Positions 16,043 through 56,705 of a stretch of DNA of 64,000 bases are shown here, one piece after another. Each line of letters starts with the position of its first letter. Position 1 is the stretch's first letter. The position numbers and the translations under genes were made by a program. Below the pieces are notes generated by a model. The model saw nothing but the letters and a program-made list of their open reading frames with translations, was not told where the DNA came from and searched no databases. The DNA is from Octopus vulgaris (Eukaryota). Location: the NCBI GenBank assembly GCA_951406725.2, contig OX597823.1:107942001-108006000 (forward strand). Reading direction: 5' to 3'.

Positions 16043-17292
16043 CGAGGGACGTTCAATAAGTAATGCCCCTGACCCATAGCAGTAGAACAACGAAACTTGG
16101 CACAGTTATTAGTCTTTTTCTACATAGGAACCACCCAGAGTTACGCATTCCTCCCATCGTTTGATGCAGCTCTGGAGACCGTTTTTGTAGAAGACCCCAG
16201 CTTGGTCCTCCAACCACGACGTGACTTCAGAAATCAAGGCTGCATCATCTGGGAAACGCTTTCCTTTCAAAAACAACTTCATGGCTGGGAAGAGCTGAAA
16301 ATCAGAGGGTGCAAGGTCAGGAGAGTAGGGGGATGGGGGAGGAGTTCATAGCCGCACATCCGTGCTTCTGATCTGGCAACAAGCGAGTTGTGGACCGGAA
16401 CGTTGTCCTGCAGGAGGAGGATGCCTTTGCTGATCTTGCCCCGCCTCTTGATTTTGATAGCTTCTCTTAATTTCCTCAAAAGTGAAGCATGATAGGCCCC
16501 TGTAATTGTGGTACCCTTTGCCAGGAAATCTCATCACTACTCCGTCCTGGTCCCAGAAGACTGTGAGCATGACCTTGCCAGCGGAGGGCTGCACCCTTGC
16601 CTTCTTTGGAGGAGGTGAGTCACGGTGCTTCCACTGCATTGACTGGGATTTGGTCTCTGGATCATAGTGATGGACCCAGGTTTCATCCTGTGTAATTTTG
16701 AAAAATTTTGACTCATCTTCTTGGCTAGACGCGTTCTTGCTTCTGGAAAGGTGTGAGCAGCCCGGGAATCCATCTAGCAGACACCTTTTGCATATGCAAA
16801 TGGTCATGAATGATAGTTTCCACAGACCCGGTACTAATCTTGACCTCATGGGCTATTTGGCGAATAGTTATGCGTCGATCTTCCAAAATGGCAGCCTCAA
16901 CTTGACAGACAGATGCCTCATCAACAGCAGAAGGGGGCGACCAGATCTGGGAGCTGTTTCCACAGAGTTCCGACAAAGTTTGAATTCACGATGCCAGCGT
17001 TTTACAAGGTCATATGATGAGGCATCATCACCATAAGTTACTTTCATTTCATCAAAAGTCTCCCTTGGTGTGCGTCCTTTCAAATACAAAAACCGGATCA
17101 CTGCTCGACACTCAACAGGTTCCATTTCACACTTGACTCAGTTCAAACACCTGTAAATCAGAAACCCCAATTAGTTCAGAGCTGTAATTTGCAACCTAAT
17201 CTATAGAGATATAAATATTTGCACATGCAAAATTTCAGCTAGATCAAACTACTGCAAGTGTGTCAGGGGCATTACTTATTGAACGTCCCTCG
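16043..17292 (-). mobile_element. Full-length mariner with frameshifted transposase pseudogene
   Basis: Perfect TIRs CGAGGGACGTTCAATAAGTAATGCCCCTGAC with TA on both sides; split ORFs MEPVECRAVIRFL.., WIPGLLT, DETWVHHYDPETK, LLQDN, LPHPP. Confidence 0.97.
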
Positions 17293-32822: not shown

Positions 32823-32931
32823 GTACTAGCTACGGCGGTACATATTCTAAAATTGGGACGATACAGAGAAGATTAGCATAGCCCCTGCGCAAGGATGACA
32901 CGCAAATTCGTGAAGCGTTCCATATTTTTTT
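32823..32931 (+). pseudogene. U6: Full-length U6 snRNA retrocopy
   Basis: GTACTAGCTACGGCGGTACATATTCTAAAATTGGGACGATACAGAGAAGATTAGCATAGCCCCTGCGCAAGGATGACACGCAAATTCGTGAAGCGTTCCATATTTTTTT: ACAGAGA box, AGC triad and ISL present; several substitutions; only microsatellite upstream, so no PSE/TATA promoter. Confidence 0.95.
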
Positions 32932-38090: not shown

Positions 38091-38287
38091 GGTCCCGGGT
38101 TGATTCGGGGTTAACCACAGTAAGTAAGGTACTCAATACATAGCAGAGTAAAATTAATTTATTATATAGAAGGAGCTTCTACAGGGCTAGTACTGTTTCA
38201 TTCAAGAGAAATCTTCAGGAAGCTCCTGAAGATTTCTCTTGAATGAAACAGTACTAGTCCTGTAGAAGCTCCTTCTATATAATAAAT
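38088..38287. mobile_element. Penelope-like fold-back remnant: 64-bp arms with a 3-nt spacer, in (TA)n
   Basis: 38157-38220 is the reverse complement of 38224-38287 at 63/64 positions; each arm carries CTGAAGA-stem-GAAACAGTA. Confidence 0.75.
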
Positions 38288-38364
38288 ATATATATATATA
38301 TATATATATTGATAGATAGATAGATATGTATACATATATATGTATATATATGTATATATATATA

Positions 38365-38575
38365 TCACACCATGCTTGATCGCTAAATCCACAACTTTTT
38401 TATTCTCTGCTTTGTTGTTCCCTCTTTTGTGTATTTTCTTTTGTTCCTTTCTGTTGAAGAGCGTAGGCTCGAAACGTAAAAGACTTTCGCACTTTCCCGA
38501 GCGTCAAACTAATACAACTGTTTGTTATTTGTTATTCTTACGCCAGTCTTCGTCTTTTGTTTGTCTGTAAATTTC

Positions 38576-38580
<5 letters not shown>
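38365..38580 (+). mobile_element. Small hammerhead-bearing element in (TA)n
   Basis: Homologous to 39865-40050; contains the motif at 38447-38482. Confidence 0.7.
38447..38482 (+). ncRNA. Minimal hammerhead-like motif (A6U variant, palindromic stem III)
   Basis: CTTT-CTGTTGA-A-GAGC(GTAG)GCTC-GAAA-CGTA-AAAG. Confidence 0.6.
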
Positions 38581-38618
<38 letters not shown>

Positions 38619-38629
38619 TATATACATAC

Positions 38630-38935
38630 GTGATCCTCGTGACCGACCAGGCTATCAGATGTTGCTACACATCGCTGGTCACAATGCGCTTCGCATTGTT
38701 TTAGTCTTCAAATGACGCCACCCCGCTGGCTAAGCGAGCAGGCCAACAGAAGAAAGAGTGAGAGAAAGTTGTGGCGAAAGAGTATAGCAGGGATCGCCAC
38801 CATCCCCTGCCGGAGCCTCGTGGAGCTTTTAAGTGTTTTCACTCAATAAACACTCACAACGCCCGGTCTAGGAATCGAAACAGCGATGTTATGACTGCGA
38901 GTCCGCTGCCCTAACCACTGGGCCATTGCGCCTTC

Positions 38936-38937
<2 letters not shown>
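38630..38937 (-). mobile_element. SINE family C, tail type 2
   Basis: Same head and body as 17917-18289; unrelated tail at 38630-38745. Confidence 0.9.
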
Positions 38938-39014
<77 letters not shown>

Positions 39015-39459
39015 TACACACACGTACCTACATATACACATGCGCGTATAAAGGAATACAGAAAACGTCGTCGGAATTAACGCATGAGATCGGCAGACAT
39101 CGATTACGCGAAGCATATGTTTAGCGTACAAAAGCCATCGGTACCATTCGTCGACATTACTCAACAAAAGTACTTATATACAGCGCCTGGACTCCGTATA
39201 CTAATCTATGTGGAGTTATGAAGACCCTAACCACATCGGAGATAGAAGTTGAGTGCAAAACTGATCTTCAGCTCCTATAACTAATGGCTGGTGGCCTATA
39301 ACCTCAAATTCGAGAAAGAAAAGTCCTCATGGCTAGTTGTTGAACACACTGACAAAGAAAAAGGGTTAAAACTTTATAATCTCCCTCAAACCGCTATCTG
39401 TAATCGACCCGGTTGACTTGTGGGTCCAAGGACTTCAGCAGGAATCTCCTGAAGTTTCT

Positions 39460-39700
39460 AGTCTCCTATTTCCTCCGTTTGTAAATTCATAAGTTATTAC
39501 GTGTGTAGCACGGTTGAGGTCACCTAGCGCTCTGCATGCAACATCAGGTCCGAGCTGATAGCCATGATCAAGGTGTTCGTTCTTCCCAAAGACACAGTGA
39601 AAAATGCAAGCACCAGGTTCAGGGGCCGTTTTGAGGTCGTGGTGAAAGGTGAGGATGTCTATTTTGAGTAACTCTTAACTCTTAACAGTGATAATCGAAT
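39460..39700 (+). mobile_element. Tc1/mariner-superfamily transposase C-terminal relic
   Basis: SYYVCSTVE..LPKDTVKNASTRFRGRFEVVVKGEDVYFE*. Confidence 0.6.
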
Positions 39701-39823
39701 TCATAATAATTTTTGGAATTTAAAAAAATACTTTTATTTTTGGATGGCATATTGTTGTTTTCTTTCTCTTTTATACGAAAAGTCAAATTTAACCCGAACA
39801 CTCTGTGTGTGTGTGCACATACA

Positions 39824-39862
<39 letters not shown>

Positions 39863-39923
39863 GTTAGCTCCTACACGCATTTTTTTCTCTCCTTGTTTCT
39901 CTCCTTGTTTTTTTTCTGTGTCC

Positions 39924-39959
39924 CTTTCTGTCGAAGAGCGTAGGCTCGAAACGTAAAAG
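39924..39959 (+). ncRNA. Minimal hammerhead-like motif within the element at 39865-40050
   Basis: CTTT-CTGTCGA-A-GAGC(GTAG)GCTC-GAAA-CGTA-AAAG; differs from the 38447 copy only at position N7. Confidence 0.6.
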
Positions 39960-40047
39960 ACTTTTTCTATTCCTGAGCGCTATACTAATACATTTGTTTG
40001 TTTGTACTCCACCTGCCTTCGTCTTTTGTTTATTTTCGTAAACTTTC

Positions 40048-40107
<60 letters not shown>

Positions 40108-56072: not shown

Positions 56073-56705
56073 CGAAGTGATATCAAAAAGTTCCCAGACC
56101 AGTTCTGTAGCGCACCAACAGATGGCAGCACACGGTTGCGTACTCGGTTGCGTACACGATGAGAACTCACTGTGACCTTCATGAGGCAGCGTGCCGAGTG
56201 GCATCGCTGCGTGTACTTCAAAGTTGTGAAACTGATGTGTTTGTGATCACATGTATGCTGCAGTCTGCGATTTTCGTCATGGACAGGAAGTTGGAAGAAA
56301 GAGCCGACGTGAAATTTTGCATTAAACTTGGGAAGTCTGCTGAAGAGACCCTGAGCATGCTTCGGCAATCTTACAATAAGAAGGCAATGGGTCGTATGCA
56401 ATGTTTCGAGTGGGACGGGCGTTTCAAAAGCAGAAGAACGTCACAGGAAAACGATGAGCGATATGGAAGACCTGCCACGACCGTCACTCCCGATAATTAC
56501 TCTCTTTACTCTTTTACTTGTTTCAGTCATTTGACTGTGGCCATGCTGGAGCACAGCCTTTAGTCGACCTCAGGACTTATTCTTTGTAATCCTAGTACTT
56601 ATTCTATCGGTCTCTTTTGCCGAACCGCTACATTACGGGGACGTAAAGACACCAGCCTCGGTTGTCAAGTGTTGTTGGTGGGACAATCACAGACACACAC
56701 AAGCG

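What the first reader, a model, noticed from the sequence alone, without database searches (positions are those of the whole stretch)
38447..39959. Two diverged elements conserve a 36-nt non-canonical hammerhead, differing only at free position N7
Seen: 38447-38482 and 39924-39959 are identical except CTGTTGA versus CTGTCGA, while their flanks differ considerably. Both have U in place of the normally invariant A6, an extra A before stem II, and stem III reduced to the palindrome ACGT. Known: minimal PLE hammerheads with palindromic stem III are proposed to cleave as dimers. Inference: selection is acting on a variant catalytic core (CUGUNGA) that standard searches would miss.
Basis: partly seen in the sequence, partly recalled or inferred. 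Interest (0 to 1): 0.7.

Follow-up and report, generated by a model that had tools for sequence, protein, structure and literature searches.

The report
Jumping-gene hammerhead with altered core
These two stretches are short leftover ends of a recently active jumping gene whose predicted self-cutting RNA motif has U instead of the usually fixed A at one core position in about 18,000 genomic copies; the rest of the core stays conserved, so the RNA likely still cuts, but slowly (untested).

Summary
Observation confirmed: 35 of 36 nt are identical, against 77% in the homologous flanks. Both copies are ~200-nt 5'-truncated 3' ends of a Neptune-type Penelope-like retrotransposon, ending at (TA)n. 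They belong to an old and a younger subfamily. Genome-wide, 18,450 of 19,252 motif copies have U6 and 246 have A6. All 30 endonuclease-selected young copies, and the tandem units with long RT–GIY-YIG frames, carry U6. Sister families keep canonical A6 (7,827 hits), and stems I and II covary across families. In 83 copies chosen by flank, common variants hit 2 of 36 motif sites (N7, H17) versus 18 of 52 flank sites (P=0.0015). Rare mutations and CpG decay are similar in motif and flank. So constraint acts on source elements, not on these two fossils. U6 itself is not shown to be selected. The extra A and the ACGT palindrome are known features. Cleavage is untested, and truncated copies do not pile up at the predicted cut. 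I found no paper on a natural A6U hammerhead, but the key paper (Lünse 2017) was unavailable. This scan noted the same U6 core earlier in another genome (e1-10280526).

The parts
38366..38578 (+). 5'-truncated 3' end of a Neptune-type Penelope-like element, old subfamily (U6, U7, A17), between two (TA)n tracts; left border approximate
   Evidence: end branch 0.16-0.2; nearest rows 77-82% identical
38447..38482 (+). minimal type I hammerhead motif, copy 1: stem I 38447-38450/38479-38482, C3 38451, U6 38454, N7 38455, stem II GAGC/GCTC with GTAG loop, ACGT palindrome, predicted cut after A17 (38478)
   Evidence: sequence; covariation of the stems across families; cut site by hammerhead numbering, predicted
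38579..38628 (.). (TA)n tract at the 3' junction of copy 1 (likely insertion target)
   Evidence: the same junction type recurs in most other copies
39860..40050 (+). 5'-truncated 3' end of the same element family, younger subfamily (U6, C7, A17); an independent insertion
   Evidence: end branch 0.04; 96% identical to nearest row
39924..39959 (+). minimal type I hammerhead motif, copy 2: C3 39928, U6 39931, N7 39932, predicted cut after A17 (39955)
40051..40105 (.). (TA)n tract at the 3' junction of copy 2 (likely insertion target)

Best explanation
The two stretches are truncated 3' ends of a Penelope-like retrotransposon lineage whose terminal-repeat hammerhead motif carries U at position 6 in 96% of copies, and this motif likely still works as a slow, dimer- or protein-assisted self-cleaving RNA in the source elements. 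Shown: family identity, U6 as the lineage state including the youngest copies and tandem units with long open frames, A6 in sister families, and constraint on the rest of the core and stems between subfamilies, with change only at N7 and H17. Inferred: A6 changed to U once, before the oldest subfamily I sampled. Also inferred: tandem ~4.5-kb units give transcripts with two or more motifs, whose ACGU palindromes would pair to form stem III in trans; cutting after H17 would be slow, so most RNA used for copying stays uncut at this site. The two window copies themselves are probably neutral fossils.
For: Position 6 genome-wide: U 18,450, C or G 556, A 246 of 19,252; reversed-pattern control 0. 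30 of 30 loci chosen by the endonuclease protein carry U6 downstream, and their EN DNA differs by 0.4% on average. Five fetched long regions show the motif repeated at 4,470-4,529 nt with frames of 917-1,200 codons between; Pfam RVT_1 E=1.3e-7 and a sub-cutoff GIY-YIG hit. Canonical A6 sisters: 7,827 hits vs control 43, homologous flanks. U6 with sister-type spacing: 68 hits, about 25 truly sister-type by eye. Stems: 87% of cells paired, 50 double-sided changes vs 19 in shuffles, 0 of 500 shuffles as high; slid controls lower. Flank-selected 83 copies: common variants at 2 of 36 motif sites (N7, H17: A or U) vs 18 of 52 flank sites, P=0.0015. Ten core positions unchanged has P about 0.014 at the flank rate. 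A natural A6C hammerhead keeps low activity (PMC3088659, PMC7151607); a PLE hammerhead cleaved only with its protein (PMC11167929).
Against: No cleavage datum. A6 substitutions are strongly deleterious in Mg2+ (A6C rate 3.6e-6 vs 0.30 per min at 0.3 mM, PMC7151607), and PLE minimal hammerheads are already weak (PMC4209133). Loop II, which catalysis leaves free, is also unchanged between subfamilies, which fits sequence recognition equally well. 87 of 100 flank-selected copies carry the motif across the cut site. Among 37 copies truncated within the motif region, only 5 start at the predicted cut, similar to neighbouring positions (counted by eye). In PAc, hammerhead mutants did not block insertion in vitro (PMC11167929). 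Part of the N7 variability may be CpG mutability (C7pG8). The hammerhead fold is not the predicted minimum-energy fold of monomer or dimer. The covariation set is related sequence and was partly selected for changes at pair 10.2/11.2.
Confidence: 0.55

Rival explanations
1. A6U killed catalysis; the hammerhead-shaped sequence is kept for another job, such as a binding site for the element's protein or a promoter element in the terminal repeat, and the lineage spreads without cleavage.
For: Loop II is as invariant as the core; copies read through the cut site; hammerhead mutants did not affect PAc insertion in vitro (PMC11167929); Naiads reach high copy numbers without canonical hammerheads (PMC8557442); the U6 lineage has more exact-match copies than the canonical families.
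Against: The only two sites that vary between subfamilies are N7 and H17, the positions catalysis leaves free, and the common H17 states are A and U, not G.
Confidence: 0.3
2. Neutral carry-over: nothing constrains the motif now; it looks conserved because the source lineage has had little time to change it.
For: Any single site, U6 included, has about a 65% chance of no change at the flank rate; flank comparisons include T-rich tracts that are hard to align and may mutate fast.
Against: 2 of 36 vs 18 of 52 variable sites, P from 9e-5 to 0.006 over three thresholds. ORF remnants of older subfamilies differ from the young ORF at 32-56% of four-fold sites (post-insertion decay included), while their motifs, which were partly selected on the motif, differ at 1-3 sites.
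Confidence: 0.1
3. The family is canonical A6 and these two copies are dead mutants.
For: 246 A6 copies exist.
Against: A6 is 1.3%, rarer than C6 plus G6. A6 copies do not cluster on the tree of the oldest group: 10 changes vs 10.4 in shuffles. The youngest copies are all U6.
Confidence: 0.01

Closest known systems
Minimal type I hammerheads (min-HHR) of metazoan Penelope-like elements (Cervera and De la Peña 2014, PMC4209133; Lünse et al. 2017, seen only as a title in reference lists)
   Same: Location in the terminal repeat of a PLE, short stem I, extra nucleotide between 9 and 10.1, G10.1-C11.1 pair, palindromic 15.2-16.2 with no real stem III, mostly solo truncated copies, some inverted pairs.
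   Different: U instead of A at position 6, fixed across a lineage of about 18,000 exact-match copies. The text I read (parts 1-2 of 4) names U3-A8 and Drosophila variants but no A6 change.
Bcep176 phage hammerhead A6C variant (Perreault 2011, PMC3088659; PMC7151607)
   Same: Natural substitution at position 6 in an otherwise intact core.
   Different: Single phage sequence with C6, assayed (low activity, prefers Mn2+). Here it is U6, in a minimal eukaryotic retroelement motif, at very high copy number and not assayed.
PAc hammerhead of Poseidon from Anolis carolinensis (PMC11167929)
   Same: PLE hammerhead; uncut RNA appears to be the main template.
   Different: Poseidon clade, with the motif overlapping the ORF start. 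Here the motif lies about 750 nt before the first Met in tandem units and about 100 nt before the element's 3' end, and has U6.
Neptune clade of EN+ Penelope-like elements (PMC8557442)
   Same: Single ORF with RT then C-terminal GIY-YIG, CX2-5CxxC linker, microsatellite targets, tandem units.
   Different: Clade placement was not tested by phylogeny; Nematis also has a zinc-finger-like linker.

Membership tests
EN+ Penelope-like element | single ORF with RT followed by C-terminal GIY-YIG endonuclease | tested here: met
   Full-length relatives: RVT_1 E=1.3e-7 at residues 454-643; GIY-YIG E=0.0065 (below cut-off) at 874-907; homologues carry both domains. The window copies themselves have no ORF.
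EN+ Penelope-like element | tandem units forming pseudo-LTRs that hold the hammerhead | tested here: met
   Motif repeats at 4,470-4,529 nt on both sides of the ORF in 5 of 5 long regions fetched, two of which overlap.
Neptune clade | CX2-5CxxC linker between RT and EN; microsatellite (TA)n targets | tested here: met
   C-x4-C-x2-C linker in the ORF; 3' junctions at (TA)n. Definition from passages of PMC8557442.
Neptune clade | phylogenetic placement with reference Neptune RTs | not tested
   No named reference set was available; Nematis is not excluded.
Minimal type I hammerhead | stems I and II supported by covariation | tested here: met
   7 of 8 pairs show double-sided changes across 27 distinct rows; 0 of 500 shuffles reach the covariation score. 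Within the U6 lineage the stems are invariant, so the support comes from sister families.
Minimal type I hammerhead | core C3 U4 G5, G8 A9, G12 A13 A14, A15.1-U16.1, H17 | tested here: met
Canonical hammerhead core | A at position 6 (CUGANGA) | tested here: not met
   U in 18,450 of 19,252 copies
Hammerhead ribozyme (functional) | site-specific self-cleavage after H17 | not testable with these tools
   Only assembled contigs were available, which cannot show RNA ends; the truncation pattern shows no pile-up at the cut.
Rfam hammerhead families | covariance-model match | tested here: inconclusive
   No match for copy 1, but none for two canonical A6 copies either.

The most novel reading that the evidence does not exclude
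A6U is a selected attenuation of the hammerhead: a natural U6 core that cuts only when licensed (by dimer formation, the element's own protein or a metal such as Mn2+), which spared more full-length template and let this lineage out-amplify its canonical sisters. It would be a functional U6 hammerhead that I could not find described, at tens of thousands of copies, and a natural experiment on what PLE ribozymes are for.
Probability: 0.2. Interest if true: 0.7.

Novelty: new variant of a known kind. Interest (0 to 1): 0.42.

Why it matters
What PLE hammerheads do is still open. This genome holds a recently active lineage with U6 beside sister lineages with A6 on nearly the same scaffold, which gives a ready-made paired test. 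If U6 cuts, the hammerhead consensus must be widened and CUGANGA descriptor searches undercount ribozymes by many thousands in such genomes. If U6 is dead, an active PLE keeps a hammerhead shape without catalysis, which points to a non-catalytic role.

Tried and rejected
1. An old A6 subfamily at the base of this lineage: suggested, rejected. The oldest group is 82 U, 12 C, 6 A among the first 100 of 473 hits (by eye), and A6 rows do not cluster. 2. Copies templated by the cleaved 3' product: no pile-up at the cut. 3. A competing hairpin between the 3' strand of stem II and a downstream GAGC: predicted at mean probability about 0.3 in both U6 and A6 copies, so not a U6-specific compensation. 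4. Expression and cleavage from public runs: no RNA holder listed, only contigs, no molecule ends. The query covered the 206 nt just upstream of the motif, not the motif. 5. Metagenome scan for the U6 pattern: 0 hits. 6. Host-gene context: 80 of 181 candidate window frames scanned with Pfam gave only transposase and HTH fragments and weak hits. 7. RVT_1 genome search returned other retroelements and was not used. 8. The cluster-based test is circular, because clusters were defined on the flanks, and it included badly aligned columns; I rely. 9. Branch-by-branch counts of source-lineage changes were not obtained, so the number of changes per site is known only roughly. 10. Lünse et al. 2017 was not held.

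Full report
Observation. The two 36-mers match at 35 positions and differ at hammerhead position 7. They sit in two homologous ~200-nt repeat copies (38366-38578 and 39860-40050), each ending at a (TA)n tract. Flank identity is 117 of 152 ungapped positions; 35 of 36 at that rate has P about 0.001. No third copy was found in the window with up to 7 substitutions. The genome is 2.8 Gb and microsatellite-rich. An earlier scan note calls it octopus-like (e1-8667233); I did not test the taxonomy.

What the repeat is. An exact pattern with positions 6, 7 and three loop bases free has 19,252 hits, control 0. Most of the 59 loci examined are short, but several extend about 800 nt upstream into the C-terminus of a GIY-YIG endonuclease, one with a C-x4-C-x2-C linker. 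Searching with that 91-residue piece gave 150 scored hits, all 100% identical. The 30 fetched loci differ by 0.4% on average over the EN DNA, and all 30 have the U6 motif downstream. Five long regions (two overlapping) show tandem units of 4,470-4,529 nt with the motif on both sides of frames of 917-1,200 codons, some units broken. One ORF matches RVT_1 and, below cut-off, GIY-YIG; 529 homologues were found. This is an EN+ Penelope-like element of Neptune type by linker and target (definition from passages of PMC8557442); the clade was not tested by phylogeny. On flank trees, window copy 1 falls in the oldest group and copy 2 in a younger one (support mostly weak), so they are independent insertions and not a tandem unit.

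U6 is the lineage state. Position 6 is U in 18,450, C or G in 556 and A in 246 of 19,252 copies. In 83 copies chosen only by a downstream flank pattern it is 80 U, 2 A, 1 G. These are the first 100 of 16,758 hits, all on contig C1; 17 were dropped: 13 truncated or lacking the motif, 3 with atypical upstream sequence, 1 inverted twin. A6 copies are scattered on the tree, so my initial idea of a basal A6 subfamily failed. Other families in the genome keep A6: 7,827 hits vs control 43, mostly a TCC-loop sister with the same stem II and homologous flanks, plus many older families. U6 with sister-type spacing is rare, 68 hits, about half of them deletion variants of the GTAG lineage by eye. The simplest reading, inferred from this distribution, is one A-to-U change at the root of the GTAG lineage.

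Is it a hammerhead fold? Across 27 distinct rows from these families, 87% of stem I and II cells pair, and 50 cells change on both sides against 19 in shuffles; slid controls are lower. The rows are related and one pair was partly selected for change, so this is support and not a probability. Single-sequence folding recovers stem II but not the active fold. The extra nucleotide after A9, the G10.1-C11.1 pair and the palindromic 15.2-16.2 are listed as standard min-HHR traits in PMC4209133.

Where does selection act? In the 83 flank-selected copies, variants carried by at least 8 copies (CpG transitions ignored) occur at 2 of 36 motif sites and 18 of 52 flank sites, P=0.0015; with thresholds 5 and 10, P=9e-5 and 0.006. 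The 18 farthest-upstream columns, which aligned badly, and the pattern columns were left out. The two motif sites are N7 (all four bases) and H17 (A or U). Rare substitutions are 1.8% in the motif and 2.6% in the flank (P=0.056); CpG transitions are 5.8% and 4.8%. So source elements keep the motif, while inserted copies decay at about flank rates. At the flank rate, ten core sites staying unchanged has P about 0.014, but one site such as U6 has P about 0.65: the data do not show that U is preferred at position 6. Loop II is also unchanged, and N7 may be partly driven by CpG mutation.

Mechanism. Shown: structure of the element, U6 state, constraint on the remainder. From the literature: min-HHRs showed low activity as dimers and none as monomers (PMC4209133); a PLE hammerhead cut only in the presence of the element's protein, and its mutants did not stop insertion in vitro (PMC11167929); A6C keeps low activity and prefers Mn2+ (PMC3088659, PMC7151607). 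Inferred: the U6 motif is a slow, assisted ribozyme acting on tandem transcripts (0.55). The main rival is a catalytically dead motif kept for recognition (0.3). Genomic evidence for cutting is absent: 87 of 100 flank-selected copies span the site, and of 37 distinct copies truncated within the motif region (first 100 rows, by eye) 5 start at the predicted cut, with similar numbers at neighbouring TA-like positions. Public runs gave only contigs.

Literature seen. PMC4209133: parts 1-2 of 4 and a term search of supplement file 2, which showed no U6 core in the two CUGU passages displayed of three; file 1 could not be searched. PMC11167929: parts 1-2 of 4. Passages only: PMC8557442, PMC7151607, PMC3088659, PMC6765202, PMC11014351, PMC6962438. 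bioRxiv 2026.07.22.740005: part 1 of 5. Searches listed no paper on a natural A6U hammerhead (listings and abstract starts only). Lünse et al. 2017, which surveys small PLE hammerhead variants, was not held, and it or unseen supplements may already contain U6 examples. Hammerhead numbering and the freedom of N7 and H17 rest on my own knowledge. An unreviewed scan note reports the same U6 core in about 68,000 copies in another genome (e1-10280526); it is not independent support.

Verdict. A real, lineage-fixed core variant of a known ribozyme class in a recently active retrotransposon; the two window copies are ordinary fossils of it. Novelty: new variant of a known kind. Interest 0.42.

Noticed in passing
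window 32823-32929 (+): U6 snRNA match (Rfam RF00026, 107.6 bits) with several changes from the model; gene or pseudogene not determined.
   Followed up: no
window about 38160-38290: Long near-perfect inverted repeat (MITE-like hairpin) just upstream of copy 1 (sequence; overlaps a hairpin-type Rfam hit).
   Followed up: no
L045:1440-1620: Apparent chimera: upstream flank and A6 resemble the canonical TCC-loop family, while loop and downstream flank are of the GTAG lineage; possibly a template switch or recombination at the hammerhead.
   Followed up: no
25-35 nt downstream of the predicted cut in both lineages (window 38499-38503, 39975-39979): A GAGCG word shared by U6 and A6 families can pair with the 3' strand of stem II and would switch the hammerhead fold off (mean predicted probability about 0.3).
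   Followed up: partly
window 16349-17137 (-) and 56111-56560 (+): Mariner-type transposase fragments (Transposase_1, HTH_48).
   Followed up: no
L234-L263: Many older, low-copy repeat families with canonical A6 minimal hammerheads and different stems (439 hits vs control 8).
   Followed up: partly
L052 and L212: RT remnants of another, distant PLE family (24-29% identical to the Neptune-type ORF) lie next to motif copies.
   Followed up: no
runs X7, X19, X20 (organism labels B, E, F): Contigs cover position 6 with no different letter, so the U6 state is not confined to one organism label; the labels are coded and their relation to the host is unknown.
   Followed up: partly
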